NCBI GenBank assembly: GCA_963746775.1
Contig: CAVVCK010000001.1
Location: forward strand, 211,050-275,049
Length of the DNA: 64,000 nt
Source: an uncultured bacterium
GTDB taxonomy: Bacteria > Patescibacteriota > JABMPQ01 > CAVVCK01
Direction of reading: 5' to 3'
The notes beneath the pieces are model-generated. The model had not been told where the DNA came from, did not search any database, and saw only the letters and a program-made list of their open reading frames with translations. The position numbers and the translations under genes are program-made. Within the stretch, counting starts at the first letter, position 1; each line of letters opens with the position of its first letter. This document shows, in pieces, positions 8,569 through 53,126 of this stretch.

Positions 8569-8580
8569 ATTTTTTATTTA

Positions 8581-8679
8581 CTACGTACGAAAGCCTCTAA
8601 TATTATAATGGTCAAAGGCTTAAAAAAATTTTAATAAAATTATTTACTACACACAAAATACCTTTCGTATGCAGTTTAT
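8581..8679. repeat. Inverted-repeat motif pair (site 1): CTACGTACGAAAG ... CTTTCGTATGCAG flanking a roughly 68-bp AT-rich spacer
   Basis: Seen in sequence; same motif family as 15507..15617 and 23866..23938; lies 13 bp upstream of pilT start codon. Confidence 0.55.
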
Positions 8680-8710
8680 TTATCTTGTTAATTTTAGCAA
8701 ATTTTAAGGT

Positions 8711-9178
8711 TTAATTCAATAAATTAAGTTCTTCTAGAATTTGCCAAATAATATTTTCTGAAAAACCTTTTCTATTTAAATATTGACCTATTTTAGTAAT
8801 CTTATCTTTTTTCGTCTTACTTTTAATCATTCTTTCTTTTGCTTTGGCTAATTTATAAGCAAGTTTTATTTCCTCCTTTTCAGAAAAATTTTTCTTTAAT
8901 GTTTTTTCTACTAAATCTTGATCTAATCCTTTCTTAACCATTTTATTTTTACACAGAATCCTTCCTACTGGCCTATATTTAATTTGATTTTCTAAAAACA
9001 TTTCAGCATACTCTTTATCTGACAAAAGTTTATGTTTTAGAAAAAAATTTACTGTTTTATCTATTATTTCATCGTTATATCCTTTTTTAGCTAATTTATT
9101 TTTTATTTCTAAAACAGTCCGTGGATATTGAGATAAAAGTTTTGTGACGAAACTGCAGGCATTTTTAAAATGATCCAT
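8711..9178 (-). CDS. recX: RecX-like regulatory protein
   Basis: 155 aa, three-helical-repeat composition and RecX-like pattern (..LLSDKEYAEMFLENQIKYRPVGRILCKNKMVKKGLDQDLVEKTL..EKEEIKLAYKLAKAK..GFSENIIWQILEEL). Confidence 0.55.
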   Translation of the reverse strand: MDHFKNACSFVTKLLSQYPRTVLEIKNKLAKKGYNDEIIDKTVNFFLKHKLLSDKEYAEMFLENQIKYRPVGRILCKNKMVKKGLDQDLVEKTLKKNFSEKEEIKLAYKLAKAKERMIKSKTKKDKITKIGQYLNRKGFSENIIWQILEELNLLN

Positions 9179-9194
9179 AATAAAATTATGATTT

Positions 9195-9488
9195 CTACTT
9201 AAAAGGATTTTTTACCTGCTCAATTTCTGAAATTATATCTTGATTAACTTCTTTTCTTTTATTTAACTTTTCTAGCACCCCTTGGTCTACTTTGATTCTA
9301 ACATATTTATAATCTTTATTATCTACAGAAAGATTACTGGGACTAAGTACGGCTATATAAAAAATAACTGATACAAAAATAGCATTAGCTAGCGTTACAA
9401 ATAAAATAATTACTACCGCAGCTTGATCTAATTGGTCTTTGAAGTATGAAACTATTTTTGATTTTATATTTCTAATATCAATTTTCAT
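9195..9488 (-). CDS. Small single-TM hypothetical protein in pilus locus
   Basis: 97 aa with central hydrophobic helix AAVVIILFVTLANAIFVSVIFYIAVL. Confidence 0.4.
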   Translation of the reverse strand: MKIDIRNIKSKIVSYFKDQLDQAAVVIILFVTLANAIFVSVIFYIAVLSPSNLSVDNKDYKYVRIKVDQGVLEKLNKRKEVNQDIISEIEQVKNPFK

Positions 9489-9541
9489 TAACTTTAATTA
9501 TTTAACTATTAATTTTTTATTTAAAAAATTTGAATACACTT

Positions 9542-10174
9542 TCACCGAGTAAAAGCTCTAATTTCTAAAGTAGTCTTAACTATTTCTGCATTTGATAATT
9601 CCTCTTCTCCAAAAGGCTTAGTGCCCGATACAGGACTAGCGCTATTTGATTTTATTTCCATAGACACAACATCAGTATATACGCCTACACTTTCGAGCTC
9701 AGCTAAATATAAAAGAAGATTTTTGTAACTTCCCTGCAATTTTACCCTAAAACGTAGAGAGTTAATACTTTCTAAAGGATCCCTAATAGATTCTGTCTTA
9801 GAGTCTGTATTTCCATCTTTTTTATTTTTACTGCTCTCCTCTAATGTATTAATTACTTCTATTGTCTGGCTATTTGAAGTTTTTTCAGCTATATTTTCTA
9901 ATAAAACAATAAATTCTAGACCATTCTCTTTTGAAATTAAAGCTTTAGATAAATTATTCAAAGTTGATTTTGCTTCCTCTTCATCTTCTTTTAACTTTTT
10001 AAAATTATCTTTTTTTAAATCAAAATCTGCTATACCTGATTTTTGCTTTTTTATATCATCCGATAAAGCAAAAATATCCTTAACATAAGGGGCAATCACC
10101 AATACACCAAATACTACCAGTCCGAGACAAGTTGAAATAGTAATCAGGTAGATATTTTTTTTATTTGATATCAT
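9542..10174 (-). CDS. PilO-like type IV pilus assembly protein
   Basis: N-terminal TM helix followed by coiled-coil and C-terminal domain; position after PilM/PilN-like genes. Confidence 0.5.
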   Translation of the reverse strand: MISNKKNIYLITISTCLGLVVFGVLVIAPYVKDIFALSDDIKKQKSGIADFDLKKDNFKKLKEDEEEAKSTLNNLSKALISKENGLEFIVLLENIAEKTSNSQTIEVINTLEESSKNKKDGNTDSKTESIRDPLESINSLRFRVKLQGSYKNLLLYLAELESVGVYTDVVSMEIKSNSASPVSGTKPFGEEELSNAEIVKTTLEIRAFTR

Positions 10175-10180
10175 TATTTT

Positions 10181-10741
10181 TTAATCCTGGCTTATTAAAT
10201 ACTGGCTATTTAAATTAGTTGTTATCTCAAAGGGAATATTTCCCTGGCTTATTAAATAGTCAGATGGTAAATCAATATTTCTAAAATACTTGAATTTATT
10301 TAGTGCTTCTATATATTGTAATAACTGATCACGTTCTTCCGCTTTGCCAGTAATCTTAACTTCATTTTTTTCTTTGTTTAAAATCACATCACTAATAACA
10401 ATTCTATCGGGAGTAATAGCTGTTAAATCTAATAAGATATTTGACCACAAAACTCTATTCTTCTGGATTTTATCAATATTAATAAACATTACATTAGCAT
10501 TTTTAATAGTTGTTTCTATCTCTTGATTTTTATCTGAATCAAAATAGTTTTCAAAAGCTTTGTTCTGATCTTCTAAAGATTCCAAATTATTAGTAAGTAA
10601 CCTTTTAGTCGCAAATAAAAGTTCATAAGTAAGTCCCAATATTATAAAAGATAGGATAAACATGCCAACCACAGAAATACTGGCTTTTTTAGTTTCTATT
10701 TTTGTCTTTAATTGTTTAGGTATCAAATTTAGTGTTATCAT
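10181..10741 (-). CDS. PilN-like type IV pilus assembly protein
   Basis: Short cytoplasmic N-terminus, single TM (ISVVGMFILSFIILGLTYELLFA), periplasmic domain; overlaps pilM stop by 4 bp. Confidence 0.55.
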   Translation of the reverse strand: MITLNLIPKQLKTKIETKKASISVVGMFILSFIILGLTYELLFATKRLLTNNLESLEDQNKAFENYFDSDKNQEIETTIKNANVMFINIDKIQKNRVLWSNILLDLTAITPDRIVISDVILNKEKNEVKITGKAEERDQLLQYIEALNKFKYFRNIDLPSDYLISQGNIPFEITTNLNSQYLISQD

Positions 10742-11820
10742 TTGGTTTGAAAGGTTTTAAGATCAGCGCCTCTTAGGGCTAGACCGATCGCTTCAGTATA
10801 TGTTAATGAGTCTTCATGGTTTAATCCCAAGGGTTTATTTAAATGTATATTAATCCAGGGATTTCCTAATCTTACTTTCTGTTTTGTTTTTAGAGAAAGG
10901 TAGGGAACTATACCAAAGAAAGAAGCTCCCCCGCCACAAATTAAAATCTCAAAATTTATATTTTTATTTTCTATATCTTGATAAAAATAATTTTCAATCT
11001 TCTGTATTTCACTTGCCAAATTATCTAAAACAGAATGAATAGAATCTAATATTTTTCTTTCTTTTTCTGAAATTTGAGGACTACAACAATTAACTTTTAT
11101 TTTTTCTGCCTCTGCCTCTTTAATATTCAAAATATCAGCAATTGTCTTAGTAAATAAATTGCCCGAAACAGTAAAAATACTAGAGCTGAAATATATCCTA
11201 TCATCTATTATAATATCAAAAACAGTCTTAGAAGCGCCAATATCTATAATCAAATATGCTTCTTTTTTATTTTTATCTCTTACTTCAGTGATTAAAGCTC
11301 GACTCTTAGAAGCAGTGCAAGGCTCCAGTACTTGTGTTTTAAGTTTGGCTTTATTGAAAACACTTAAATAGCCATCAATTAAATTTTTTGGAGCTGCTGC
11401 TAATAAAAGTTTTATTTCCCTACCTTCTTTATTTAATATTTGCCAATCTAGATAAGCATCATCAATTGACATAGGAATATGATTTTCTGCTTCCCACTTC
11501 ACTGCTTCTTCTAAATCAGATTTACCCATTTGAGGTACTTTTATAACTCTCACAAATGTTTTATTCTCAGGCAAAGAGCTAACAACATAAGGAGTAGTAA
11601 TTTTTTGCGGTTTGGCAAAACTTATAAGCTCTTGAACTAATAAAGCTACTTCACTTTCTTTTTTAATTTCTCCCTCTACTACTAAACCTTTGGGCAAACG
11701 CAAACGATTATAACCTGCTATTTCATAATTATTTATTTTTTTTCTTAACCAAAAAGCTTTAAGTGAAAAATCACTTATTTCCAAACCAAAAGCCTTTTTG
11801 TTATCTATGAAATCAAACAT
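10738..11820 (-). CDS. pilM: Type IV pilus assembly ATPase-fold protein PilM
   Basis: 360 aa actin-like ATPase fold signatures (IIDIGASKTVFDII, GGGASFFGIVPYLS), PilM-like N-terminus. Confidence 0.75.
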   Translation of the reverse strand: MFDFIDNKKAFGLEISDFSLKAFWLRKKINNYEIAGYNRLRLPKGLVVEGEIKKESEVALLVQELISFAKPQKITTPYVVSSLPENKTFVRVIKVPQMGKSDLEEAVKWEAENHIPMSIDDAYLDWQILNKEGREIKLLLAAAPKNLIDGYLSVFNKAKLKTQVLEPCTASKSRALITEVRDKNKKEAYLIIDIGASKTVFDIIIDDRIYFSSSIFTVSGNLFTKTIADILNIKEAEAEKIKVNCCSPQISEKERKILDSIHSVLDNLASEIQKIENYFYQDIENKNINFEILICGGGASFFGIVPYLSLKTKQKVRLGNPWINIHLNKPLGLNHEDSLTYTEAIGLALRGADLKTFQTK

Positions 11821-12064
11821 ATTATTTAATTCACCTTATGCAAAATATTAAAGTTTTATTAATTATTTTAAAAAAATAGCAATAAATTAACAGATATACA
11901 ATTGAAATATAATAGAAATAAATAGCGGTGTAATCAAAGCAACTTATTTCAATGTACTTCTATGTATTTCTACCATATTTCAGTTAATAATTTACACATT
12001 ATTGTTTTCCCTAATAAGCTTATTTTTAAAAATATTATTGCATAACATTAGTTAGTTCTTTTTG

Positions 12065-13462
12065 TTATTTTATTTCTCTCCAGGTAATCACCTCATATTC
12101 GCCCACGGTAGGAAATTGTGGAGGAGGGCCATAAGTTAAATAAGGATCATAAGTTGTTTCTGTCTGACTATAACCAGATATTATTGAGCCTCCGGAATCA
12201 ACCCAGCTCCAAGTCCAAATATTATTAGATATTACACTGCCCCAAATTTCTATTCTATCTTTTACGGCATGCTGCTCATATTTACTATCTGTATAATAAT
12301 ACCTAAAGCAATGCCCACCTTGAGCAAGCATAGCCGCATCAATCTCTAATTGTTCAGGGCTATATAAAGGAATTAAAACATCTTTTTGAGCTATTAACCC
12401 TATAGCAGTGCTTCCATCTTTGTCTCTATAAGTAATATTACCATTAATCATTATGTTAGTTTCAACTCCAGAATCACTAAAATCAGCCGAGGCTACAGTT
12501 AATCTTTCATCCGCTTCACCATCCACCCAAACATTATCTTCTACAAAGATAATTCCATTATTTGGTAAATTATATGTTTCTTCGGGACCTTCAGTCTTGA
12601 TATCAATTCCTCTCCATTGCCAGCCATCAGTAAAATCCCAGCCATAAGTCCAATATACATCGGAAACCTTATAAGCTTTAAAAGTATTTGAATTATAATC
12701 AAAGGTGATATGCCAACCATAACCACCCGAATTTCCTAAATAAACTCCATCATCCAAAGCTTCGTCACTTAGACCATCTAGATCGAGAATTATACTATTG
12801 AAATCAACTGTTGTTATTTCATGGGTTGGCGGAAAACGCCATAATTGTTGAATTTCACCATCTCCCCAAACTCCCGGGTGATTCTCATAATTACAACCAT
12901 GCTCTGGACCACATATGTAATTCGATAAAGGAGTATCCACAGTAGAATCAGATTCACCATCAAAACGTACACCACCATTTGAATGCATCTTACCAACTAT
13001 TTCTTCACCTTCACCTACCCAAGCATTACTATTAGTCAAAAATGCATAATCAGACAATGAGGGGATAGCTAATTTTGCCTCTATAATTCGCTCTACTCCA
13101 GGATCAACACCTATTTCCCCTGTTGATTTTATCGTCACTACTGTAGAGCCTAAGGGTGGCTCTGTTACTTCTAAATAAAACTGCCCAACCACATTGCCCG
13201 AAGCATCTTTATAATCATAATACTGATTCCCGCCAGAGTAGTCGTCAGAAGAATGTGCCAATCTCCATTTATAATAATTAATTCCTGCTTCAGCCACTTG
13301 GAAAGCACGCTCTAAATTTTGTTTTTTCAGGGCTGCTTTATGCAATAAAGACATTATTTCAATCAAAGAAATAGCAATCATCATGGATACAACACAAAAA
13401 ACTAAGACAATAACCAAAACATGTCCACTTTCTTTTTTTTTATTATTTTTTATCTTTATCAT
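12065..13462 (-). CDS. PilX-like pilus-associated protein (large minor pilin/tip protein)
   Basis: N-terminal hydrophobic segment followed by ..QNLERAFQVAEAGINYY.. matching PilX N-terminal domain pattern; 465 aa with Trp/Tyr-rich C-terminal domain. Confidence 0.55.
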   Translation of the reverse strand: MIKIKNNKKKESGHVLVIVLVFCVVSMMIAISLIEIMSLLHKAALKKQNLERAFQVAEAGINYYKWRLAHSSDDYSGGNQYYDYKDASGNVVGQFYLEVTEPPLGSTVVTIKSTGEIGVDPGVERIIEAKLAIPSLSDYAFLTNSNAWVGEGEEIVGKMHSNGGVRFDGESDSTVDTPLSNYICGPEHGCNYENHPGVWGDGEIQQLWRFPPTHEITTVDFNSIILDLDGLSDEALDDGVYLGNSGGYGWHITFDYNSNTFKAYKVSDVYWTYGWDFTDGWQWRGIDIKTEGPEETYNLPNNGIIFVEDNVWVDGEADERLTVASADFSDSGVETNIMINGNITYRDKDGSTAIGLIAQKDVLIPLYSPEQLEIDAAMLAQGGHCFRYYYTDSKYEQHAVKDRIEIWGSVISNNIWTWSWVDSGGSIISGYSQTETTYDPYLTYGPPPQFPTVGEYEVITWREIK

Positions 13463-13513
13463 ACTGATTATTGTTGAAGCACATACAAATATTATATGGA
13501 AATTAAAATTTTT

Positions 13514-14122
13514 TTATAAATTTTCTTTTAAATTTCTTAGTTGAGCTTCAGTACTAACATTAATAGGTTCTGGTAATCTCTGTGTGTCAACATCTATAGT
13601 TAAATTAAGCCTAACTAATTTAATAACACTTTTATTTACTGGAAATGATAACGGATTCCTGGTACCTTCATAGTCCTGATCATAATAGGAAAAGACATTA
13701 TCAGGATTAGTTATATATTGTGCTAAGGTGTTAACTTGTTCTACATCATCATAGTTAGGAGGATCTCCCTGAGGTTCAATTACTCCTCTTTTTAATTCAC
13801 TACCCTCTGTATAATATCTTACTCGCTCAGCATTAATATCTCCATCTATATTAGTGTAAAAAGTTATTGAATTGGCTGTAGCATCAACAATAGGATATGC
13901 ACCTGTATCAGAATACATACTGCTTCTAATTTCACTGGCAGTAATTGATAAAGCTTTTCTAGCACTATTTTGAGCCAAAATATGTTTAACACTTTTATTT
14001 TGTGCTCTTAAGCTCATCCAGGCATAAACAGTAATACTAACTAAAACCATAGAAAAAATACCTAAAACTACCACCATTTCAATTAAAGTTATACCGGCTG
14101 ATTTATTTTTATTTAATACCAT
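13514..14122 (-). CDS. Prepilin-type N-terminal cleavage/methylation domain minor pilin
   Basis: MVLNKNKSAG|ITLIEMVVVLGIFSMVLV class-III signal peptide. Confidence 0.65.
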   Translation of the reverse strand: MVLNKNKSAGITLIEMVVVLGIFSMVLVSITVYAWMSLRAQNKSVKHILAQNSARKALSITASEIRSSMYSDTGAYPIVDATANSITFYTNIDGDINAERVRYYTEGSELKRGVIEPQGDPPNYDDVEQVNTLAQYITNPDNVFSYYDQDYEGTRNPLSFPVNKSVIKLVRLNLTIDVDTQRLPEPINVSTEAQLRNLKENL

Positions 14123-14155
14123 TTTGGTATAATTAAATTTTTCCTATTTTTATTA

Positions 14156-15490
14156 TTAATTAGGTTGCACAGCCATTGAGATTTCTCTTGTAGTTTGCCC
14201 AGCAACTTCAATCACATCACCAAAATCAACATAGCCATCTTTCTGAACTTCTAGCGTATAGCTTTCTTGTAACAATGGTGTAAAAAATACTTGTCCAACT
14301 GAATCAGTTGACTGGGTTTCATCATAACTATTGCCAATTATTCTAACACTAGCTTCAGACAAAGGATTATTTTCACTATCTAGGATTATCATTCTTAAAG
14401 TATTGCCGGCATGCTCTGTTAGAGAAATAGTAATATTTTTATTTTCACCAGCTGATAAATTTACCGGATCTGGAGGATCGATTTTAGCAATATCATAATC
14501 TTGATTATCTTCAGTAATAGCATAATTATCCCATTCAACATTATTAATAGTAAGCTGACCTGAACCATTAGTAGTAATATTTTCAAACTTATTTCTAATT
14601 ACCGGCTGATTTTCTCCATCAAATCCTAATCTTCTCTTTCCAGTTAAATTTAGTTGGATATCACCAATAGGTGCCGGCACTTCATTGTTATCTTGCGTTA
14701 AAATGTTAATGGTACTCACTAAATCAATTACAAAACTAATCTCTGTTATACCTCCATCATAAACTGATTGGTGAGGTAAATCAGGATCAGGCAAATCATT
14801 ATTAATTGCTGAAGTATAATCAGAAGTAAAGCCCGCTTTAGAAACATTAATAGCATAATCAGGATTAATATCCGGTGTAACTGAATAGAACATTCTCTTT
14901 CCTTCAACATTAGTAGTACCTGAAAAATTTATACCTAAATTACTATTACTTACATCTATGTTGGCATTAGAAACAGGCTCATTGCTTTTATTAAAAACTT
15001 CAATGGATAAAACACCGCCTGGCTGTTCCGCCTCTTCTACTCCCCTAGGAGAAATATCAGTATAGAGCTCTACTGGGTTACCGCTCTCATATTTATCCCA
15101 AGTTACTTCTACTTTTACCTTTTTATAATCAGAACCTAGCGTATCAATCGGTACTAAACTATCATAGGGATCATCATAATAATTTACTTCTGTTTTAATG
15201 GTATAATTAATATTATCAATCTCCTTAACCTGCTCGCTGGGAATATCTCCCTGTGGCCAACCATTGGTTGTAGCTATATCACTGTAGGGAAGATTGTGAA
15301 TCATCTCTAGCTGTTGATTAGCTAAACCTACGGCTGTTGTTCTAGCTTCGCTGATAGCAGAATTTTTAAATACTACCCTAAAAATAGCAAAAATTGCTGT
15401 AAAAAAAATACCCATAATTGCAAGAGCAACTAGTGTTTCAACTAAAGTAAATCCCTGCTTTCTTTTTGTGTTTTTTTTATTTAATAACAT
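14156..15490 (-). CDS. Large type IV pilin-like protein with Ig/carboxypeptidase-regulatory-like domains
   Basis: Prepilin signal KRKQG|FTLVETLVALAIMGIFF; 444 aa with beta-sandwich-like repeats (..GQVFFTPLLQESYTLEVQKDGYVDF..). Confidence 0.65.
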   Translation of the reverse strand: MLLNKKNTKRKQGFTLVETLVALAIMGIFFTAIFAIFRVVFKNSAISEARTTAVGLANQQLEMIHNLPYSDIATTNGWPQGDIPSEQVKEIDNINYTIKTEVNYYDDPYDSLVPIDTLGSDYKKVKVEVTWDKYESGNPVELYTDISPRGVEEAEQPGGVLSIEVFNKSNEPVSNANIDVSNSNLGINFSGTTNVEGKRMFYSVTPDINPDYAINVSKAGFTSDYTSAINNDLPDPDLPHQSVYDGGITEISFVIDLVSTINILTQDNNEVPAPIGDIQLNLTGKRRLGFDGENQPVIRNKFENITTNGSGQLTINNVEWDNYAITEDNQDYDIAKIDPPDPVNLSAGENKNITISLTEHAGNTLRMIILDSENNPLSEASVRIIGNSYDETQSTDSVGQVFFTPLLQESYTLEVQKDGYVDFGDVIEVAGQTTREISMAVQPN

Positions 15491-15506
15491 GCACTTACTT
15501 TTATGC

Positions 15507-15617
15507 TTTTACCACGTACGAATTTCCGAATAAATAAATATTGTTTTTTTTCTTTTTAAGTAGTTTTATTAATCAGAAAAATATAATTTTAAACATTAGA
15601 AATTTGTACGTGGTTCA
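15507..15617. repeat. Inverted-repeat motif pair (site 2): TTTTACCACGTACGAATT ... AATTTGTACGTGGTTCAT flanking a roughly 77-bp AT-rich spacer
   Basis: Seen in sequence; arms ACCACGTACGAA / TTTGTACGTGGT are reverse complements with one mismatch; located between pilin start (15490) and pilC stop (15621). Confidence 0.6.
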
Positions 15618-15620
15618 TAT

Positions 15621-16823
15621 TTAAAAATTTTCCATAAGTGAATATATAGGTGAGATCACCGAAACTGCCACCACACCTACTACTAACCCTAATATTACCA
15701 TAAGTACAGGCTCTAGAATAGAGGAAAGATTGTTCATAGTTTCTGTTACTTCTTTTTCATAAAAATCTGCAATTTCATTTAATATTTCATCTAAGGATCC
15801 TGTCTCTTCACCTACCATGATCATTTGTGTTACCAGCGGAGGAAATAAATTTTTTTCTTTCTCTAATATATCTACAATTTTTATGCCCTTTTTAACTTTA
15901 TCAATTGCCTCTTTCATTACTTTTTTATAATAAATATTTCCTAAAACATCACGGGTAATCTGAAAGGCTTTAGTTATAGGAATACCACTACGTAATAGCG
16001 TACTCATGTTTCGGGCAAATCTAGCTATATTGATCTTTCTAATAATAGGACCTAAAATAAACATTTTAACATTAAAAGCATGCGTTATTTTCTTACCACC
16101 ACTGGTTCTTGATAAGAAAAATATTCCCATAATTAGTGCACCTGCCCCTATACCAGCAAAAATACCATATACCTGAATGAAATGAGAAAGACCAATTAAC
16201 ATTCTCGTAGTTAGGGGGAGTTCTACGTCAAAATCTGTAAATATTGCCGTTAACTGCGGCAAAACAAAAATCACCATTAATACACCTACTCCTACCATAG
16301 TTAGTAAAACTACAATAGGATACATTAAGGCTCCCCTTACTTTTACTATTAATTCTCTATCTTTTTTCATTTGAGTAGCCAATTCATTTAACACTTTTTC
16401 TAATTGGCCACTCATTTCTCCCATCCTGATCATACTGATATAAAAAGGAGAAAATATTTTTGGATAAGCTCCCAAGCTATCTGCAAACATAGAGCCCTTT
16501 TCTATCTTTTTCTTTATATCTGTAATTATTCTTCTAAATCCATTTTTATTTGTTTGTTTTGCTAAAATATCCAAAGCACGCACAATAGATAGTCCAGCTT
16601 TTATCATTAAAAATAAATTTCTAGTTAGCATTATTTTTTCAACAGTAGAAATTTTTTCAGAAAATATTTTAAATTTACTTTTTTTCTCCTCAGCTTCGGC
16701 GAATGTTAAAAGCAGCCCCTGCTCACGTAAAATATGTGCTAATTCTTTTTTTGAGCTCACTAAAATTTCGCCTTTTTTTTCAAGACCTTCTTCATTGCGC
16801 GCTGTATAAGAATATTTTGGCAT
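15621..16823 (-). CDS. pilC: Type IV pilus inner-membrane platform protein PilC
   Basis: 400 aa, two T2SS-F domains, three TM segments, typical PilC/GspF architecture. Confidence 0.85.
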   Translation of the reverse strand: MPKYSYTARNEEGLEKKGEILVSSKKELAHILREQGLLLTFAEAEEKKSKFKIFSEKISTVEKIMLTRNLFLMIKAGLSIVRALDILAKQTNKNGFRRIITDIKKKIEKGSMFADSLGAYPKIFSPFYISMIRMGEMSGQLEKVLNELATQMKKDRELIVKVRGALMYPIVVLLTMVGVGVLMVIFVLPQLTAIFTDFDVELPLTTRMLIGLSHFIQVYGIFAGIGAGALIMGIFFLSRTSGGKKITHAFNVKMFILGPIIRKINIARFARNMSTLLRSGIPITKAFQITRDVLGNIYYKKVMKEAIDKVKKGIKIVDILEKEKNLFPPLVTQMIMVGEETGSLDEILNEIADFYEKEVTETMNNLSSILEPVLMVILGLVVGVVAVSVISPIYSLMENF

Positions 16824-16866
16824 AAATTTATTAAATTCTAAATCCTAATATAGAGATATTAAAATA

Positions 16867-18597
16867 TTATTCTTTAGTTATTCTCAAAATCTCCTCTATA
16901 GAAGTAATTTTAGTTATAGCCTTAGCAAATCCATCTTGGATCATAGTAAGCATACCATCTTTAACTGCCTGAGCCTGAATTTTTTCTGAAGAAGATGATG
17001 CTACCACCAAATCCTTAATAGCTTCATTTACATCCAAAACCTCAAAAATACCAACTCGTCCCTTGTAACCTTGCATATCGCAATGATCACAACCCTTCCC
17101 TTTATAAAAACTTATTTCCGCTAAAGATTTTTCTTTTTCTATAACTTTTTCCCTAACTAAAACCTTAATTATCTCTGCCATATCATATTGGCTTTCTAAC
17201 ATACCAATAGCAACTTTATCCAGCTTATATTCTTCTATACAATTAGTACATATTTTACGTGCTAATCTCTGAGCAACTACCACATTAACTGTTGAAGAAA
17301 TCAAAAATGGCTTAACCTGCATATCTGATAAACGAGCAAATGCTCCAGCAGAATTCATGGTATGCAAGGTAGATAATACCAAATGACCAGTTAGCGCTGA
17401 ATGTATAGCCATTTCAGCTGTTTCTTCATCACGTATTTCCCCAACCATAATTATGTCTGGATCTTGACGAACGAGAGACCTTAATCCATTAGCAAAAGTA
17501 AAGCCAATTTTAGCTTTCACCTGGCTCTGATTTATACGGGGCATTCTATACTCTATAGGATCTTCTATGGTTGCAATATTTACCTTAGTAGTATTTAAAA
17601 TATTTAAAACTGAGTACAAGGTGGAGGTTTTACCAGAACCAGTAGGACCTGTTACCAAAATCATTCCGTTAGGTTTTTGGACATTTTCCATAATTGTTTT
17701 CAACCCTCCTCCTCTTAAACCTAACTCTTCTAAAGATAATATTCTGCCTGACTCTATCAAAAGACGCATTACTATTTTTTCACCATCAAAAACTGGTAAA
17801 ATGGAAACACGAAAGGATATTTTCTGATCATCTTTTTCTATTTTAAACCTGCCATCCTGAGGCAACCGATGCTCATCTATTTTTAAGTTGGATAAAACTT
17901 TGATACGAGCCACAATACCAGCCATAATTTCCTTCGGCAAAACAATTACATCACGCAAGATGCCATCAATTCTATATCTCACCACAATATTTTTTTCTAA
18001 AGGTTCAATATGAATGTCAGAAGCTCCCTGTAAAACTGCATGTTCAACTAAAGTACTCACGATTCTCACAATAGGCATATTTTCAGCTAGTTTTTTTAGA
18101 TCTTTTTCTGGATTTCTGGAAACAACTAAACTTTGATCAATGATGTTTTTAAATTCTTGGCGTAAACCACGCTTGTACTGTTTCAAGACAGATCTAATAC
18201 CTGACTTAGTGGCTACATAAACTTTAACATTTCTGCCTATTTTCTTTTTAATAAATTCCAGAGTTTGCAGATCTCCTGGATTAGACATAGCTATTTCCAA
18301 AGTACCTTTTACCTCACCAAAAATTACAATTTCATTTTTTTGAGCTATTTGTTCTGGAATTTGAAAAAGTAAATCTTTTCTGATAACTTGCTTAGTTAAA
18401 TCTATAAAAGGAATTTTAATTTGTCTGGACAGTTCCTTAGATAAATACTCTTCATTAACTATATTTTTTTTTAAGAGTAAACTCTCCATATCTACTTTCT
18501 TCTTTTGCGCTTCTTTCTCAAACTTTTCAAAATCTTTCACATTCAAAATAGCATCCTCGGACAATTTATTTTTTAATTCTTTTGGATCCAAAGGCAT
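16867..18597 (-). CDS. pilB: Type IV pilus assembly ATPase PilB
   Basis: 576 aa; Walker A GPTGSGKTST, Asp/His boxes, tetra-Cys zinc motif CTNC...CDHC, N-terminal GspE-N domain. Confidence 0.9.
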   Translation of the reverse strand: MPLDPKELKNKLSEDAILNVKDFEKFEKEAQKKKVDMESLLLKKNIVNEEYLSKELSRQIKIPFIDLTKQVIRKDLLFQIPEQIAQKNEIVIFGEVKGTLEIAMSNPGDLQTLEFIKKKIGRNVKVYVATKSGIRSVLKQYKRGLRQEFKNIIDQSLVVSRNPEKDLKKLAENMPIVRIVSTLVEHAVLQGASDIHIEPLEKNIVVRYRIDGILRDVIVLPKEIMAGIVARIKVLSNLKIDEHRLPQDGRFKIEKDDQKISFRVSILPVFDGEKIVMRLLIESGRILSLEELGLRGGGLKTIMENVQKPNGMILVTGPTGSGKTSTLYSVLNILNTTKVNIATIEDPIEYRMPRINQSQVKAKIGFTFANGLRSLVRQDPDIIMVGEIRDEETAEMAIHSALTGHLVLSTLHTMNSAGAFARLSDMQVKPFLISSTVNVVVAQRLARKICTNCIEEYKLDKVAIGMLESQYDMAEIIKVLVREKVIEKEKSLAEISFYKGKGCDHCDMQGYKGRVGIFEVLDVNEAIKDLVVASSSSEKIQAQAVKDGMLTMIQDGFAKAITKITSIEEILRITKE

Positions 18598-18748
18598 TAT
18601 CTTTTAAATTATTTTTTGTAGTTACCCCTTGTATATTCTAGTTTCTTTTAAAATTTAATCATATTATACCAAATTTTTATAAAAATACTATATTTAACAA
18701 TTGATATTTTAAATATAATTTAATACTATTTAGGTATAATTACATCTT

Positions 18749-20563
18749 ATGAATAATTCAAAAATTAAAAACAGACTGTCACAACTTCCTCAGAAACCAG
18801 GTATTTACATCTTCCAGAACAAAAAGGGCATTATTTTATATGTTGGCAAAGCTAAGAATCTAAAAAAAAGAGTAAGCTCGTATTTTATAAAAAATAAAGA
18901 ATTAGCTCCTGACAAAGAGCTAATGCTACCCAAAATATCTAAAATAGACTACATAGTAGCCGATTCCGAATCAGAAGCACTACTACTAGAATCAAATTTA
19001 ATAAAGAAAGAAAGACCAAAATATAATGTAGTTCTAAAGGATGATAAGCAATATCAATATATAAAGATAGACTATAGCGATGATTTTCCAAGGATTTATA
19101 CAACTAGGGAAATAAAGAGGGATAAATCCTCACACTATGGACCTTTTACTGATGGCTTTGCTGTCAAAAATACACTTAATCTATTAAATAAACTCTTCCC
19201 CTACAGAGAATGTAGCCTAGAGATTTATGAAAATTCCAAGAAAAGAAGAGTATGCCTCAAATATCATATCAAAAGATGTTTAGGTCCTTGTGCCGGTTAC
19301 ATATCTAGGAATGATTATAATAAATTAATTAAACAGTGCGAACTTTTTCTACAAGGGAGACAAGACAAAATATTATTAGAAATGAAAAAGGAAATGAGAA
19401 ATGAAGCTAGTAATAGAAATTTTGAAAAAGCAGCCATCCTCCGCGATCAAATTCTTAACTTAGAAAAAATAATTGAAAAACAAAAAATTATTTCGACGAC
19501 GAAAATTGATCAAGACATAATTTCATATTTTCAAGGCGAAGACGTAACTATAATTAATCTCTTCATAATCAGAGAAGGTAAATTAATTGGTAAAGAAAAT
19601 TTTTATTTAAACACAAAAGGCAAAGACATCAAAGAAATACTGTCCACCTTCGTAAAGCTGCATTACCTAAATCAAAATATGATTCCCCGAGAAATAATAA
19701 TACAAAAAGATATAGAAGATAAACACTTGATAGCAGCAAGTCTATCTAAAAAAACGAATAGAAAAATTAATATTATAATCCCTGCCAGAGGTAAAAATTT
19801 AAAATTAATTCAGTTAGGTGAGAAAAATGCTAAGCTTTACTATCATAATGTATTAGCAAAAGAAAAGCCTAAGCAAACAGATAGCAGACAAATAAAGGTA
19901 TTAGAAAATATTAAAAAATTATTTAAGCTCGCAGATATCCCTCATCGAATTGAATGTTATGATATTTCTAATATTCAAGGAACTTCAGCCACTGGCTCTA
20001 TGGTAGTTTTTCAAAATGGCAAACCTGCTAAATCAGAATACCGCCGCTTTAGGATAAAATTCGGCTCAATTAGTGATACCGATATGATGAAAGAAATGTT
20101 AGCAAGAAGATTCAAACACAAAGATACTTCTCAGAAAAAATGGCCTCTGCCTAATTTAGTAATTATTGATGGGGGACAAGGACAGCTAAATGCTACAGTA
20201 AAAATTATAAAAGAACAAAAGTTAGACATACCAATAATCTCCATTGCCAAAAGATTAGAAGAACTCTACTCACCCAATTCAGATAGGCCTATTAGGTTAT
20301 CTAAAGATTCAAAGGAATTACAGTTAATTCAAAATATTAGAGATGAAGCTCATAGATTCGCTATTACCTATCATAAGAAAATACGAGAAAAGAAATTATC
20401 TGCTTCGGAATTAGATAGTATTAAGGGTATAGGTGATAAAAGACGTAAAGAGTTGTTAAATAAATTTAAGACTGTGAATAATATTAAGAAGGCTGAATTT
20501 AAAGAACTAAAAAAAATACTTGGAGAAAAAACAGCTCAAAAAATAATTATTAAATTAAAATAG
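18749..20563 (+). CDS. uvrC: Excinuclease ABC subunit C
   Basis: 604 aa; GIY-YIG N-terminus (PGIYIFQNKKGIILYVGKAKNLKKRVSSYF), UvrBC-interaction region, RNase H-like endonuclease and C-terminal HhH. Confidence 0.9.
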   Translation: MNNSKIKNRLSQLPQKPGIYIFQNKKGIILYVGKAKNLKKRVSSYFIKNKELAPDKELMLPKISKIDYIVADSESEALLLESNLIKKERPKYNVVLKDDKQYQYIKIDYSDDFPRIYTTREIKRDKSSHYGPFTDGFAVKNTLNLLNKLFPYRECSLEIYENSKKRRVCLKYHIKRCLGPCAGYISRNDYNKLIKQCELFLQGRQDKILLEMKKEMRNEASNRNFEKAAILRDQILNLEKIIEKQKIISTTKIDQDIISYFQGEDVTIINLFIIREGKLIGKENFYLNTKGKDIKEILSTFVKLHYLNQNMIPREIIIQKDIEDKHLIAASLSKKTNRKINIIIPARGKNLKLIQLGEKNAKLYYHNVLAKEKPKQTDSRQIKVLENIKKLFKLADIPHRIECYDISNIQGTSATGSMVVFQNGKPAKSEYRRFRIKFGSISDTDMMKEMLARRFKHKDTSQKKWPLPNLVIIDGGQGQLNATVKIIKEQKLDIPIISIAKRLEELYSPNSDRPIRLSKDSKELQLIQNIRDEAHRFAITYHKKIREKKLSASELDSIKGIGDKRRKELLNKFKTVNNIKKAEFKELKKILGEKTAQKIIIKLK

Positions 20564-20585
20564 AGGCACACAGAACGCATGCCTC
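20564..20585. terminator. Hairpin GAGGCA-N10-TGCCTC at convergent junction uvrC/ferredoxin gene; T-rich tract follows on minus strand
   Basis: Seen in sequence. Confidence 0.35.
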
Positions 20586-20605
20586 CAGACTAAAAGAACC
20601 CCCTC

Positions 20606-21589
20606 CTATTTGCTTCCTTTAAAAAACTTTTTCCCAGCTCTTTTGTAAAATTTTCTATTGAGCCTAGGAAAATCCTCTGTGCCGCTTATTTCCTGTTGAT
20701 TAGAGATAATAAAAGAATTAGGGCACATATTCACACACATCTGGCAGGCAACACAGCGTCCCTTATCAAACACTAGTTTACCGTCACCTGCCTCTACCCA
20801 TGCGTTTTGCGTACATTTTAATGCTACGCATTTTTTGCCACACTTATTGCATGGTTCTCTAAATTTTATTTTGTGCATTTCTTCTTCGGTCTTATCCAGA
20901 AAATTAATCTGGAGCCACCACCAAAAGATCATTAATAATTTTTTAGGCTTGGGTTTCTTGATCTTGATTCCATCCGAAACAATAATTCTGCAAATATCTT
21001 TAGCCATTCCTTTGACTAATTCCAGGGCACCCCTGCCTCCGCACAATGTACCACCAATAGAATTAGCAAAATTTCGAAATACTCCAAAGTCATCACCCTC
21101 TCTTTTTCTTTTCTTTATTACTACATTCAAATCTGTCCCCGGAGCAATTAACTCCACGAACCCTCCCACGAGGATGTTTTTTTCTTCCAGCAATTTAATC
21201 AGTTCCAGAGTGGCATCACCAGAAACACCACTCTTGGTCATGAAGGTGTACGCCCTCATTGGTGCATCAAATCTAGCCAGCCTAGACACGAATTCAGCCA
21301 TAGGCTTCGGTGGCATCATCCTATAAACGGGACAGCCGAATATTAGCATATTGAATTTCAATATATATTCTTGTAAATCAGAATCCGACATGTCTACAAT
21401 CAAGTTAGAATCAACCCCCACGATTTCCACCTCGAAATAGAGTCTTAGCATTCTAGCTAAGACCTCAGCTACCAGGCGAGTCCCCCCAACTCCACTGTAA
21501 TAAAAAACCACTACACTTTTTTGTTTTTCAATGTGCATGTTATCTCTTTCCTCCGGAAAATTTATTTCCGAAAATTTATTTTCAACCAT
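20606..21589 (-). CDS. Flavodoxin-like domain protein with C-terminal 4Fe-4S ferredoxin domain (EFR1-family-like)
   Basis: N-terminal flavodoxin-like fold (VVVFYYSGVGGTRLVAEVLA..), C-terminal CxxCxxCxxxCP cluster motifs (CVACQMCVNMCP, CNKCGKKC); locally elevated GC compared with neighbours. Confidence 0.55.
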   Translation of the reverse strand: MVENKFSEINFPEERDNMHIEKQKSVVVFYYSGVGGTRLVAEVLARMLRLYFEVEIVGVDSNLIVDMSDSDLQEYILKFNMLIFGCPVYRMMPPKPMAEFVSRLARFDAPMRAYTFMTKSGVSGDATLELIKLLEEKNILVGGFVELIAPGTDLNVVIKKRKREGDDFGVFRNFANSIGGTLCGGRGALELVKGMAKDICRIIVSDGIKIKKPKPKKLLMIFWWWLQINFLDKTEEEMHKIKFREPCNKCGKKCVALKCTQNAWVEAGDGKLVFDKGRCVACQMCVNMCPNSFIISNQQEISGTEDFPRLNRKFYKRAGKKFFKGSK

Positions 21590-21766
21590 ATTTAGCTATT
21601 TGTCAACCCAAAAGCAGATATTTACTCAAATGTTAATATAGATACTTACTAAAAAAACAAATATTGACAAATTTACCCTATTTGGTATTCTAGTAAGTAC
21701 TAAATAATTACCTCTAGGTAAGTTTTTTAAGTATAAATAAGTAAATTTAAATTATTAATAAATCTA

Positions 21767-21985
21767 ATGGAGTTAGCTCTAAGCATAATCCAAATTATAA
21801 GTTCAGTCATTTTAATAGTTTTGATAATGATTCAGAATAAAAGCGGCGGTCTATCTGAAGCTTTTGGAGGCGGAGGATCTGAAGTTTATCATACCAAAAA
21901 AGGTGCTGAAAAATTCATTTTTATTGGTACTATAGTTTTTTCTGTTATGTTTTTGGGTACCGCTTTGGTTAACCTCTTCTTTTAA
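21767..21985 (+). CDS. secG: Preprotein translocase subunit SecG
   Basis: 72 aa; two TM helices separated by Gly-rich loop KSGGLSEAFGGGGSEV typical of SecG. Confidence 0.6.
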   Translation: MELALSIIQIISSVILIVLIMIQNKSGGLSEAFGGGGSEVYHTKKGAEKFIFIGTIVFSVMFLGTALVNLFF

Positions 21986-21991
21986 AATTTC

Positions 21992-23848
21992 ATGTTCAAA
22001 AAAATTTTTTCAAAGAATAAATCTCAAAATATTTCAATAGAAGATCTTAGAAAAAATAAATTTTTTAGTATTTTTAAAAAAATAAATCTAAAAAAGTTTA
22101 TTAAAAAAATAAAAAATATAATTTTTATTCCTAAAGTTCTCTCTAAACCTGAGAAAATTATTATATTATTAGCTTTTATCTGTATTTTTTGTTCTACTAT
22201 TTATCTTAGCGTTACAATAATACCCAACTATATTCAGGAAAAACCAGCTTTTGGCGGGACATATACAGAGGGTGTAGTCGGTCAACCGCAGTTTATTAAT
22301 CCCATACTGGCTCCAGCCTCTGATAGTGATTCAGATATCACTCGCTTAGTATATTCAAGTTTGCTTACTTATAATGAAAATCAAGAGTTAGTCCTAGATT
22401 TAGCTGAAAATTACGAAATTTCCGAAGATCAAAAGAATTATACTTTTTATCTAAAAAAGGGTGTTAAATGGCATGATGGTGAGGAAGTAACCGCCGATGA
22501 TATAGTTTTCACAATACAGACCATTAAAAATCCAGAATACCAAAGCCCTTTGCGAACGAGTTTTTCTGGCGTAGCTATTGAAAAAATAGATGATTATGCT
22601 ATTAAGTTTACCTTAACTGGTGATGCCTTTTCTCCTTTTCTGAAAGAAAATACCACTTTTGGTATTCTACCTAAACATATTTGGCAAGATATTTCTCCTA
22701 AAAATGTAACTTTATCTGAATACAATTTAGAACCAGTCGGATCAGGTCCGTATAGTTTTAAAGAATACAAAAAAGATAAAAAAACAAGCTTTATAAATTC
22801 TTATACCCTAACTGCTTTCGAAGACTATTTTGACAAAAAACCATATATAGAAGAAATTGTTTTTAGATTTTATGATGAATACGAACCTCTTATAACTGCT
22901 TATAATAAACATGAAGTTGAAGGAATAAATTTTCTACCTGTAGATGAAAAAGAAAATTTAAAAAAAGATATTAATGAATACACCTTAAATCTTCCCAGAT
23001 ATTACGCTGTCTTTTTCAATGAAGCTAAAAATAATATTCTAGCTAATACAAAAGTAAGACAAGCTATAGCCTACGGCGTAGACAGACAAAAAATAATAGA
23101 TGAGGTTTTAATGGGACAAGCAAATTTAGTGGATTCTCCTATATTACCTGGATTTTTAGGATACAATCCAGAGGTAAAAAAATATGAATATGATCCAGAA
23201 AAAGCTAAAACAATTTTAGAAGAAGAAGGTTGGAAAATGGAAGATCAGTCAGTAGAAGATACCGAAGACAAAGCAACCGAAGAAAATGCTGTTGAGCTGG
23301 GAAATTATAGGCATAAAGATAATACTGAGTTAAATATTACCCTAACCTATGCCATGCAACCAGAATTTTCTCAAATATTTCAAATTATATCTGACAATTT
23401 AAAAGAAATTGGTATTAATGTTATTCCACAAGAAATAGATTCTACTAACTTACAATCAGAGTATATCAGGACGAGAAGTTACGAAGCCTTAATATACGGT
23501 CAGCTTATTTCACATGATCCTGACCCTTACGCTTTTTGGCATTCCAGCCAAAGAGAAGATCCTGGCTTAAATTTAACTTCTTTTAAAAATAAATCTGTAG
23601 ATAATTTATTAGAAGAAGCCAGAAAAACTTCTAATGAAGAGGATAGAATTACAAAATATTTGAACTTTCAAAATATTGTAGCCGAAGAAGAACCTGCTTT
23701 ATTTTTATATTCCCCTACTTATTTGTATGGAGTGAATAAAGAAATAAAAGGAATTACTTTAGAATATATTTCAATACCCAGCGATCGATTTGCTAATATA
23801 AACAATTGGTATATCAAAACTAACAGGTATTGGAAAAAATCAAATTAG
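21992..23848 (+). CDS. ABC transporter substrate-binding protein, family 5 (oligopeptide/nickel type), membrane-anchored
   Basis: 618 aa; N-terminal TM anchor, SBP_bac_5-like core (..GGTYTEGVVGQPQFINPILA..). Confidence 0.7.
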   Translation: MFKKIFSKNKSQNISIEDLRKNKFFSIFKKINLKKFIKKIKNIIFIPKVLSKPEKIIILLAFICIFCSTIYLSVTIIPNYIQEKPAFGGTYTEGVVGQPQFINPILAPASDSDSDITRLVYSSLLTYNENQELVLDLAENYEISEDQKNYTFYLKKGVKWHDGEEVTADDIVFTIQTIKNPEYQSPLRTSFSGVAIEKIDDYAIKFTLTGDAFSPFLKENTTFGILPKHIWQDISPKNVTLSEYNLEPVGSGPYSFKEYKKDKKTSFINSYTLTAFEDYFDKKPYIEEIVFRFYDEYEPLITAYNKHEVEGINFLPVDEKENLKKDINEYTLNLPRYYAVFFNEAKNNILANTKVRQAIAYGVDRQKIIDEVLMGQANLVDSPILPGFLGYNPEVKKYEYDPEKAKTILEEEGWKMEDQSVEDTEDKATEENAVELGNYRHKDNTELNITLTYAMQPEFSQIFQIISDNLKEIGINVIPQEIDSTNLQSEYIRTRSYEALIYGQLISHDPDPYAFWHSSQREDPGLNLTSFKNKSVDNLLEEARKTSNEEDRITKYLNFQNIVAEEEPALFLYSPTYLYGVNKEIKGITLEYISIPSDRFANINNWYIKTNRYWKKSN

Positions 23849-23865
23849 TTTATATATTTAATCTT

Positions 23866-23938
23866 TTTTACCACGTACAAAATTTTGTGGATTATATTAA
23901 ATTTTATAAATATTCTTGAAATTTCGTACGTGGTTTAC
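23866..23938. repeat. Inverted-repeat motif pair (site 3): TTTTACCACGTACAAAATT ... TTTCGTACGTGGTTTAC flanking a roughly 37-bp spacer
   Basis: Seen in sequence; right arm exactly fills the 17-nt spacer of a TTGAAA-N17-TATATT promoter-like element (23916-23944). Confidence 0.6.
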
Positions 23939-23944
23939 TATATT
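23916..23944 (+). promoter_or_regulatory. Sigma70-like promoter TTGAAA-N17-TATATT upstream of rnj, spacer occupied by the TTTCGTACGTGGTTTAC motif
   Basis: Seen in sequence; roughly 310 nt upstream of rnj start, implying a long leader. Confidence 0.35.
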
Positions 23945-53123: not shown

Positions 53124-53126
53124 TAT

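What the first reader, a model, noticed from the sequence alone, without database searches (positions are those of the whole stretch)
15507..15617. Recurrent inverted-repeat motif TTYGTACGTGGT forming arm pairs around AT-rich spacers (clearest copy, pilus locus)
Here the arms TTTTACCACGTACGAATT (15507-15524) and AATTTGTACGTGGTTCAT (15602-15617) are reverse complements. They sit around a roughly 77-bp spacer between the giant pilin gene and pilC. The same arm sequence recurs at 8581..8679 and 23866..23938, while the spacers are unrelated. So it is the arms that are conserved, like a regulator operator pair or the terminal inverted repeats of a miniature element. A CGTACG core also appears at the thyA leader (52967-52976). 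The left arm lies about 15-25 nt upstream of the start codon of the downstream minus-strand gene here and at pilT.
Basis: seen in the sequence. Interest (0 to 1): 0.55.

Follow-up and report, generated by a model that had tools for sequence, protein, structure and literature searches.

The report
Tiny mobile inverted-repeat elements (MITEs)
The paired motif marks the two ends of very small non-coding jumping-DNA elements that have landed between genes of an uncultured ultra-small (CPR/Patescibacteria) bacterium; it is a new family of a well-known kind of element, not a dedicated regulator of the pilus genes.

Summary
ACCACGTACRAA occurs 4 times exactly and once with one mismatch in 64 kb (0.12 expected), always as inverted pairs at three intergenic sites. 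The best reading is that each pair forms the terminal inverted repeats of a miniature non-autonomous transposable element. Its ends are CCACGTACRAAAW…WTTTYGTACGTGG, and it is flanked by a 4-bp target-site duplication (TTTA at two window copies, TTTA/TTCA at the reported copy).

Four relatives (PilC 80-83% identical) lack the element; in two of them pilC and the pilin gene are 11 nt apart or overlap. A paired-arm scan found nine more copies, one in a Candidatus Uhrbacteria genome and eight in metagenome contigs. Most are 101-104 bp between the duplications, sit in unrelated housekeeping contexts, and have interiors that match host GC. Counting the three window copies, 8 of 12 have identical 4-nt flanks (3 of 100,000 permutations reach this). 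Two contigs with near-identical flanks carry two different elements at the same TCCA site at a tRNA-Ala 3' end.

I found no transposase, no Rfam family and no conserved gene association. The operator-pair, structured-RNA, uptake-sequence and REPIN readings are disfavoured. Verdict: new member of a known kind (MITE), of modest interest.

The parts
15512..15613 (.). Copy W2, the reported copy. It is a 102-bp element, CCACGTACGAATTTCC...GAAATTTGTACGTGG, lying between the pilC stop (15621) and the pilin ATG (15490), both on the minus strand. The interior is 12% GC.
   Evidence: Absent from the same junction in relatives L004, L027, L026 and L002.
15508..15511 (.). Left flanking 4-mer TTTA of W2 (target-site duplication, left copy).
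15614..15617 (.). Right flanking 4-mer TTCA of W2 (target-site duplication with one mismatch).
15512..15527 (+). Left terminal inverted repeat of W2, CCACGTACGAATTTCC. It pairs with the right repeat at about 15 of 16 positions, counting one G/T.
15598..15613 (-). Right terminal inverted repeat of W2. It reads CCACGTACAAATTTCT on the minus strand.
23871..23933 (.). Copy W3, a 63-bp short form, CCACGTACAAAATTT...AAATTTCGTACGTGG. It lies 22 nt after the stop of the SBP_bac_5 gene and 320 nt upstream of the RNase J gene. It has the same length as the copy in L012 and shares an interior TCCAC with it.
23867..23870 (.). Left TTTA target-site duplication of W3.
23934..23937 (.). Right TTTA target-site duplication of W3 (identical to the left copy).
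8581..8674 (.). Copy W1, a 94-bp decayed copy, CTACGTACGAAAG...CTTTCGTATGCAG. It lies between the recX stop (8711) and the pilT ATG (8568). An internal third arm-like stretch at 8646-8657 pairs with the right arm to give a tight terminator-like hairpin just after recX.
   Evidence: Relative L004 has a single TAAA and a 42-nt spacer at this junction.
8577..8580 (.). Left TTTA target-site duplication of W1.
8675..8678 (.). Right TTTA target-site duplication of W1 (identical to the left copy).

Best explanation
The arm pairs are the terminal inverted repeats of a family of miniature, non-coding, non-autonomous DNA transposons (MITE-like). The elements are 63 bp or about 101-104 bp long, with ends 5'-CCACGTACRAAAWYYGG...CCRRWTTTYGTACGTGG-3'.

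Inferred mechanism: a transposase supplied in trans binds the roughly 17-20-bp ends and cuts at the CC/GG termini. It then joins the element into a 4-bp staggered cut in the target, and repair of that cut leaves the 4-bp direct repeat. The target is usually TNNA and often G|TCNA.

The window carries three insertions. One lies between pilC and the major pilin gene, one between recX and pilT, and one after an ABC-transporter binding-protein gene.

What is shown: inverted ends, flanking duplications, empty orthologous sites, spread across Patescibacteria lineages, and same-site replacement between near-identical contigs. What is inferred: the enzyme (not found), whether the copies are still active, and any effect on the neighbouring genes. 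One possible effect is that, when transcribed with the pil operon, the element forms a 16-18-bp RNA stem that could alter processing or stability of the pilin message.
For: 1. Non-random paired motif.

2. Flanking 4-nt direct repeats are identical in 8 of 12 copies and differ by one base in 3 more. Only 3 of 100,000 permutations of left and right flanks reach 8.

3. Empty sites. L004 (PilC 80% identical) has 11 nt between pilC and pilin, and 42 nt with a single TAAA between recX and pilT. In L027 pilC and pilin overlap. L026 and L002 have unrelated spacers. None of these relatives contains the motif.

4. The paired-arm scan gave 1 genome hit (Candidatus Uhrbacteria) and 10 metagenome hits, against roughly 1 per scan expected under uniform base composition (my estimate). 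Nine of the 11 belong to the family: one copy is 63 bp and the other eight are 100-104 bp between the duplications. Their interior GC runs from 0.21 to 0.54 and follows the host.

5. Contexts are unrelated housekeeping genes. Four of the nine copies lie within about 35 nt of a tRNA or tmRNA gene, in either interior orientation.

6. L018 and L019 have flanks identical at 242/243 and 1917/1917 positions, yet carry a 64-bp CCCCGTTAGAAATTGGA element and the 101-bp CCACGTAC element respectively at the same TCCA. L020 carries a third element there, and L023 is empty there.

7. A generic detector finds 13 of 57 CC...GG inverted-repeat pairs with identical 4-nt flanks, including sister families.

8. 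The elements have no coding capacity. There is no Rfam match, and the interiors are not more structured than shuffles.
Against: No transposase, and no longer element with the same ends, was found. I looked in the window, in an extra 3.7 kb beyond its start, next to the other copies, and in viral contigs, plasmids and phages.

The three window copies share only their ends, which is unusual for a recently amplified MITE family.

Exact conservation of the 12-mer among the outside copies is partly built into the search pattern.

The reported copy itself has an imperfect duplication (TTTA/TTCA).

Reuse of one TCCA site by three different elements is not what random insertion predicts. It requires a hot spot or exchange between strains.
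Confidence: 0.8

Rival explanations
1. Operator pair. The two arms are binding sites of a dimeric or tetrameric regulator that loops the AT-rich spacer, which holds the promoter, and so controls the pilin, pilT and a third gene.
For: The arms flank AT-rich DNA directly upstream of the pilin and pilT start codons. The arm sequence is conserved while the spacers are not.
Against: The element is absent from the same junctions in four relatives that keep the pil operon. The same arms occur beside tRNA, tmRNA, murD, purF, holA, infC and ychF genes in other genomes. Flanking 4-bp duplications are unexplained by an operator. Centre-to-centre spacings of 53, 84 and 92 bp are not in helical register (calculated). 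Promoter-like sites are no more frequent than in shuffles.
Confidence: 0.05
2. Structured RNA element. The arms close a long hairpin in the transcript that works as a processing site, stabiliser or terminator, and it is conserved for that RNA function.
For: Arm-spacer-arm folds are much more stable than shuffles: z = -4.6 to -5.6 for W2 and about -4.9 for W3. The R/Y position in the arms mostly covaries between copies: A-T in 4 family copies, G-C in 3, and G.T or A.C in 4. W1 contains a terminator-like hairpin after recX.
Against: The stem forms equally well on both strands. The strand with the G.U rather than the A.C pair is antisense to the genes at W2 and W3. Interiors are no more structured than shuffles. 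Interior orientation differs between the copies at the tmRNA and tRNA-Ala 3' ends. There is no T-run after the stem, and no Rfam hit even at permissive thresholds. The flanking duplications and empty sites are unexplained. This reading remains compatible with a secondary effect of a transposon insertion.
Confidence: 0.07
3. REPIN-like doublet. Two REP-type sequences in inverted orientation are mobilised by a single-copy RAYT (IS200-like Y1) transposase.
For: The overall form is similar: two conserved arms of about 20 nt in inverted orientation around a poorly conserved spacer, about 100 bp in total, intergenic, and dispersed.
Against: Flanking 4-bp duplications are present, and from general knowledge Y1/HUH transposition does not make them. 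The individual arms are not themselves hairpins. No Y1_Tnp domain protein is among the window proteins scanned or beside the other copies.
Confidence: 0.04
4. DNA uptake signal. A species-specific uptake sequence recognised by the type IV pilus/competence machinery is arranged, as in Neisseria and Haemophilus, in inverted pairs behind genes.
For: The organism has a full type IV pilus locus next to two of the copies. Uptake sequences are known to occur as inverted-repeat terminators (general knowledge).
Against: There are only 5-6 arm copies in 64 kb, all within three elements and none in coding sequence. Known uptake sequences occur about once per kb, including inside genes. The fixed length of about 101 bp, the flanking duplications and the presence in lineages of 31-53% GC do not fit.
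Confidence: 0.02

Closest known systems
Bacterial MITEs, e.g. Correia elements (CREE/NEMIS) of Neisseria and RUP of Streptococcus pneumoniae
   Same: About 100 bp, non-coding, terminal inverted repeats, short target-site duplication, intergenic and often co-transcribed with neighbouring genes as a hairpin, and present or absent at orthologous sites between strains.
   Different: The end sequence is different (CCACGTACRAAA). The duplication is 4 bp (TNNA) rather than TA. The hosts are ultra-small CPR/Patescibacteria genomes. Copies within one genome share only their ends. No parental insertion sequence is known.
IS1380 family / piggyBac superfamily DDE transposons
   Same: From memory of the ISfinder family tables and of piggyBac (TTAA|CCC...GGG|TTAA): CC...GG termini combined with a 4-5 bp duplication, and (for piggyBac) precise excision, which would allow a site to be reused. 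The IS1380-piggyBac link is discussed in papers listed. IS1247 (IS1380 family) has a 5-bp duplication.
   Different: I found no IS1380-like or piggyBac-like transposase and made no comparison of end sequences with members of those families. This is a lead, not a test.
REPIN / REP-RAYT systems
   Same: Inverted doublet of conserved arms around a variable spacer of similar total size.
   Different: The elements here have target-site duplications, their arms are not individually palindromic, and no RAYT was seen.
DUS/USS inverted pairs acting as terminators in Neisseria and Pasteurellaceae
   Same: A short conserved motif in inverted pairs behind genes in a bacterium with type IV pili.
   Different: The density is far too low, the motif never occurs in coding sequence, and the pairs are bounded by duplications and have a fixed unit length.

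Membership tests
MITE (miniature inverted-repeat transposable element) | Terminal inverted repeats | tested here: met
   Arms of 12-18 nt with 0-1 mismatch at W2 and W3; 13-15 nt or more in the outside copies.
MITE (miniature inverted-repeat transposable element) | Target-site duplication directly flanking the repeats | tested here: met
   Identical 4-mers at 8 of 12 copies and a one-base difference at 3 more; 3 of 100,000 permutations reach 8. The reported copy W2 has TTTA/TTCA.
MITE (miniature inverted-repeat transposable element) | Small size and no coding capacity | tested here: met
   63-104 bp. Interiors are AT-rich or match host GC and hold no ORF.
MITE (miniature inverted-repeat transposable element) | Several dispersed copies in one genome | tested here: met
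   Three copies in 64 kb at unrelated sites. The whole-genome count could not be made.
MITE (miniature inverted-repeat transposable element) | Filled versus empty orthologous sites | tested here: met
   The pilC-pilin and recX-pilT junctions are empty in L004 and L027. The tRNA-Ala TCCA site is empty in L023 and filled by three different elements in L018, L019 and L020.
MITE (miniature inverted-repeat transposable element) | An autonomous element with the same ends that encodes the transposase | tested here: inconclusive
   None found in the window, in about 200 kb of related loci, or in viral contigs, plasmids and phages.
REPIN / REP-RAYT | Each arm is itself a short REP hairpin, and there is no target-site duplication | tested here: not met
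   The arms have no internal stem, and duplications are present.
REPIN / REP-RAYT | A cognate RAYT (Y1_Tnp) gene in the genome | tested here: inconclusive
   No such domain among the window proteins scanned. About 88% of the genome was not seen.
DNA uptake sequence (DUS/USS) | Very high genome-wide density (about 1 per kb), including coding regions | tested here: not met
   5-6 arms in 64 kb, all inside three intergenic elements.
Regulator operator pair | Conserved at orthologous promoters and associated with a regulon | tested here: not met
   Absent from the orthologous junctions in four relatives. Gene contexts elsewhere are unrelated.
Any curated RNA family (Rfam 15) | Match to a covariance model | tested here: not met
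   No match at gathering score over the window. No match at E<=1 over 8000-24500, and none at E<=10 over the Uhrbacteria copy.
IS1380 / piggyBac-type transposon derivative | Ends related to those of a family member, and a cognate DDE/DDD transposase | not tested
   Only the CC...GG termini and the 4-bp duplication resemble these families, and that resemblance is recalled from memory.

The most novel reading that the evidence does not exclude
The CCACGTAC elements are one branch of a Patescibacteria-wide superfamily of ultra-small (63-126 bp) CC...GG elements with 4-bp duplications. The superfamily is still active in genomes of about 0.5-1 Mb. Its members prefer G|TCNA sites at tRNA/tmRNA 3' ends and inside TTGACA hexamers, and they replace one another at the same site between near-identical strains. 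This would imply a precise-excision, site-selective transposition system. That system could be piggyBac/IS1380-like or an undescribed enzyme, and might be shared through DNA uptake. It could rewire promoters and operon RNA structure, including the pilC-pilin junction, in these reduced genomes.
Probability: 0.2. Interest if true: 0.6.

Novelty: new member of a known kind. Interest (0 to 1): 0.35.

Why it matters
CPR/Patescibacteria genomes are among the smallest and most streamlined known, and are usually described as poor in mobile DNA. A dispersed, apparently long-lived family of 60-100-bp transposable elements in them has three consequences. It marks sites of recent genome change. It can mislead annotation, because these pairs look like operators or terminators. 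And it offers a handle on strain-level variation and on whatever transposase still works in these organisms. For the pilus locus the practical message is negative: the motif is not evidence for a pilus regulator, although the insertion may have uncoupled pilin from pilC expression.

Tried and rejected
- **Rfam.** Gathering threshold over the whole window, and permissive E-value scans over 8000-24500 and over the Uhrbacteria copy, gave nothing.
- **tRNA scan of the window.** None found, so the tRNA association seen elsewhere does not apply here.
- **Promoter and terminator scans at the three sites.** Counts were no higher than in shuffles. The exceptions are a hairpin inside W1 and a 10/12 hybrid promoter-like site (TTGAAA-17-TATATT) spanning the right end of W3, which I did not take as evidence.
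- **Interior RNA structure.** Not better than shuffles.
- **Weight-matrix scan for solo or decayed arms in the window.** It found only the known copies plus one probable chance hit inside a gene at 12905. The thyA CGTACG was not recovered.
- **Search for a transposase.** Pfam on 30 window proteins and 12 neighbours of outside copies found none.
- **Search for the ends elsewhere.** Viral contigs gave 0. Plasmids and phages gave only E=4 chance hits.
- **Source genome.** The genome-contig scan did not return it, and exact-protein look-ups returned only 10-25 kb Logan contigs of the same organism. These added 3.7 kb with no further copy.
- **Cluster look-up for taxonomy of the metagenome loci.** It gave no organism names. 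YchF homologues then placed L017 among Patescibacteria.
- **L014 and L016 (GC 63-72%).** I set these aside as plain long palindromes that match the pattern by chance (inverted, not direct, flanks).
- **Literature.** I found no paper on MITEs in CPR/Patescibacteria in the searchable library.

Full report
**What the window is.** The window is 31-33% GC, with most genes on the minus strand. It carries a type IV pilus locus: pilB 16867-18597, pilC 15621-16823, a 444-aa pilin with an N-terminal methylation motif and CarboxypepD_reg domains at 14156-15490, pilM/N and others, recX, and pilT 7501-8568. It also carries uvrA, uvrC, recA, ftsK, rpoB/C, gyrB, thyA and other housekeeping genes. PilC homologues that carry a name are from 'Parcubacteria group' or 'Patescibacteria group' MAGs, and the exact protein sits on a 547-kb contig. 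The source is therefore a CPR/Patescibacteria bacterium with a small genome. Its genes almost entirely lack Shine-Dalgarno motifs.

**Checking the observation.** ACCACGTACRAA occurs four times exactly and once with one mismatch, against 0.12 expected. The copies form three inverted pairs.
- 15511-15614: between the pilC stop and the pilin ATG.
- 23870-23934: 22 nt after an SBP_bac_5 gene.
- 8580-8675: a decayed pair between recX and pilT.

The paired pattern has zero expectation in shuffles. The thyA 'CGTACG' is only a hexamer and is not recovered by a weight matrix built from arms outside the window.

**Anatomy.** When the flanks are lined up, the invariant A before CCACG and the T after CGTGG turn out to be the inner bases of a 4-nt direct repeat. 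The repeats are TTTA|CCACG...CGTGG|TTTA at W3, TTTA|CTACG...TGCAG|TTTA at W1, and TTTA|...|TTCA at W2. The element proper is therefore CCACGTACRAAAW...WTTTYGTACGTGG. It is 102 bp at W2, 63 bp at W3 and 94 bp at W1. The interiors are unrelated to each other, are 12-17% GC, and are no more structured than shuffled sequence. The strong hairpin predicted for the whole unit (z about -5) comes from the arms alone and forms on either strand.

**Comparison with relatives.** I fetched the pil locus of four relatives with 80-83% identical PilC.
- L004: pilC and pilin are 11 nt apart. recX and pilT are 42 nt apart, with a single TAAA where W1 sits.
- L027: pilC and pilin overlap.
- L026 and L002: unrelated spacers.

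None contains the motif. The elements are therefore lineage-specific insertions into otherwise tight gene junctions.

**Copies elsewhere.** A scan for the two 12-mers 26-96 nt apart found one hit among 185,579 species genomes, a Candidatus Uhrbacteria MAG. It found ten hits in JGI metagenomes and none in viral contigs. Roughly one chance hit per scan is expected under uniform base composition (my estimate).

Two high-GC hits (L014, L016) are plain long palindromes with inverted flanks, and I set them aside. The other nine have the same ends; one is 63 bp (L012) and the other eight are 100-104 bp between the duplications. Their interior GC follows the host, from 0.21 to 0.54. Subfamilies share interiors: L009/L011/L017, L007/L008, L013/L023, and the short form W3/L012.

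Their neighbours are murD, purF, RNase Y, infC, holA, ychF, an ECF sigma factor and similar genes. Four of the nine lie within about 35 nt of a tRNA or tmRNA gene. The interiors of the copies at the tmRNA and tRNA-Ala 3' ends are in opposite orientation. YchF homologues place L017 in Patescibacteria.

**Flanking duplications.** Across 12 copies the two flanking 4-mers are identical in 8: TTTA twice, TCCA twice, TCAA twice, and TCTA and TGGA once each. They differ by one base in 3 more. Only 3 of 100,000 permutations of the left and right flanks reach 8. Direct repeats that change from site to site, bordering inverted ends, are the signature of transposition.

**A natural experiment.** Contigs L018 and L019 have identical YchF, and their flanks match at 242/243 and 1917/1917 positions. 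Immediately after the tRNA-Ala(GGC) 3' end, at ...GGGTCCA|, the two differ completely.
- L019 has the 101-bp CCACGTAC element.
- L018 has an unrelated 64-bp element with ends CCCCGTTAGAAATTGGA.

Both are flanked by TCCA. L020 (YchF 81% identical) has a third element at the same TCCA, 63 bp with ends CCCCCACACCAATTTC. L023 (78%) is empty there, but carries a CCACGTAC copy upstream of the tRNA, inside a TTGACA hexamer, with a TTGA duplication.

A generic detector run on all held loci found 13 of 57 CC...GG inverted-repeat pairs with identical 4-nt flanks. These include more copies of the sister families and a 126-bp one. Four insertions lie in TGTCAA/TTGACA, and most left flanks read G-T-C-N-A. 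The window's elements therefore belong to a wider set of very small CC...GG elements with 4-bp duplications in these bacteria.

**Interpretation.** The best-supported reading is a MITE-like, non-autonomous DNA transposon family (confidence 0.8). The cut-and-paste or copy mechanism, the binding of a transposase to the 17-20-bp ends, and the 4-bp staggered target cut are inferred from the anatomy. The enzyme itself was not found in any of the places listed in the next section.

CC...GG termini with a 4-bp duplication recall IS1380/piggyBac-type elements. That comparison rests on memory and is a lead only (searches give background). Reuse of one TCCA site by three families calls for either a hot spot with precise excision or exchange of alleles between strains. 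I cannot tell which (records this).

**Effect on the host (inference only).** W2 lies inside the pil operon in the sense direction. The transcript would carry a stem of about 16-18 bp (-26.9 kcal/mol) 17 nt before the pilin ATG. By analogy with Correia elements in Neisseria (general knowledge), this might create a processing or stability boundary between pilC and pilin. W1 contributes a terminator-like hairpin after recX. The right end of W3 plus its flank makes a 10/12 promoter-like match facing the RNase J gene, but such matches are no more frequent than in shuffles.

**Rivals.**
- **Operator pair.** It fails on conservation and context.
- **Functional RNA.** It fails on strand symmetry, unstructured interiors and the absence of any Rfam match, though hairpin effects may be a by-product of insertion.
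- **REPIN.** It fails on the duplications and the lack of REP-type arms.
- **Uptake sequence.** It fails on density and on the complete restriction of the motif to three bounded units.

**What led nowhere.**
- Exact-protein look-ups reached only 10-25 kb contigs of the same organism and added no further copy.
- The cluster look-up gave no taxonomy.
- Pfam scans of window proteins and of neighbours of the outside copies found no transposase.
- Viral contigs, plasmids and phages held neither the ends nor the element.
- Literature searches found no description of MITEs in CPR bacteria.

**Verdict.** The feature is a new family of a known kind of element, of modest interest (0.35). The more interesting open points are the missing transposase and the site reuse at tRNA 3' ends.

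Noticed in passing
L018 4667-4730; L009 1597-1660; L020 2516-2578 and 13371-13435; L015 7626-7751: Sister families of tiny CC...GG inverted-repeat elements with identical 4-nt flanks. Their ends are CCCCGTTAGAAAT (64 bp), CCCCCAC(A/G)CC (63-65 bp) and CCCCGCGCCTTAATTCCGC (126 bp). They occur in the same CPR contigs as the CCACGTAC family, and some flanks (CAAG, CAGA) are not TNNA.
   Followed up: partly
L018 about 4575-4760; also L019, L020, L023: The tRNA-Ala(GGC) gene is bracketed by a 12-nt long-range complementary pair (TCTCCTCGCACC ... GGTGCGAGGAGA, or ATCTCCCGCC ... GGCGGGAGAT in L023). This resembles a processing stem around the tRNA. The mobile elements sit between the tRNA 3' end and the 3' strand of this stem.
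   Followed up: no
L009 17-20, L013 2997-3000, L015 7622-7625, L023 9813-9816: Four insertions lie in the TTGA/TCAA of a TTGACA hexamer, a -35-like sequence. In L023 this hexamer sits about 55 nt upstream of tRNA-Ala, and the duplication restores it on one side. This may reflect a target preference or an interaction with promoters.
   Followed up: partly
window 53019-53130: A run of ten C is followed by three tandem repeats of about 21 nt (CATTTCAAACCTGTCTCAACTA) and an inverted partial copy. The region lies between the rplA stop and the thyA start, and could be a phase-variable or protein-binding region.
   Followed up: no
window 24109-24151: Two direct copies of TTATCCGCAATAT lie 30 nt apart, about 110-150 nt upstream of the RNase J gene. 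They may be an operator.
   Followed up: no
window, all genes: Almost none of 50 predicted starts is preceded by a Shine-Dalgarno-like motif, and the upstream regions are simply A/T-rich. Together with -35-like hexamers about 30 nt from start codons in related loci, this hints at leaderless or SD-independent initiation.
   Followed up: partly
window 11900-11985: The longest inverted repeat in the window has 39-nt arms, 74% complementary, 8 nt apart. It lies upstream of pilM, between 11820 and 12065.
   Followed up: no
window 25976-26347 and 1938-3674: A 123-aa protein of the 23S_rRNA_IVP / bAvd-like four-helix family lies next to the RNase J gene. A 578-aa protein carries a Peptidase_S74 (endosialidase chaperone) domain, which is typical of phage tail fibres.
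   Followed up: no
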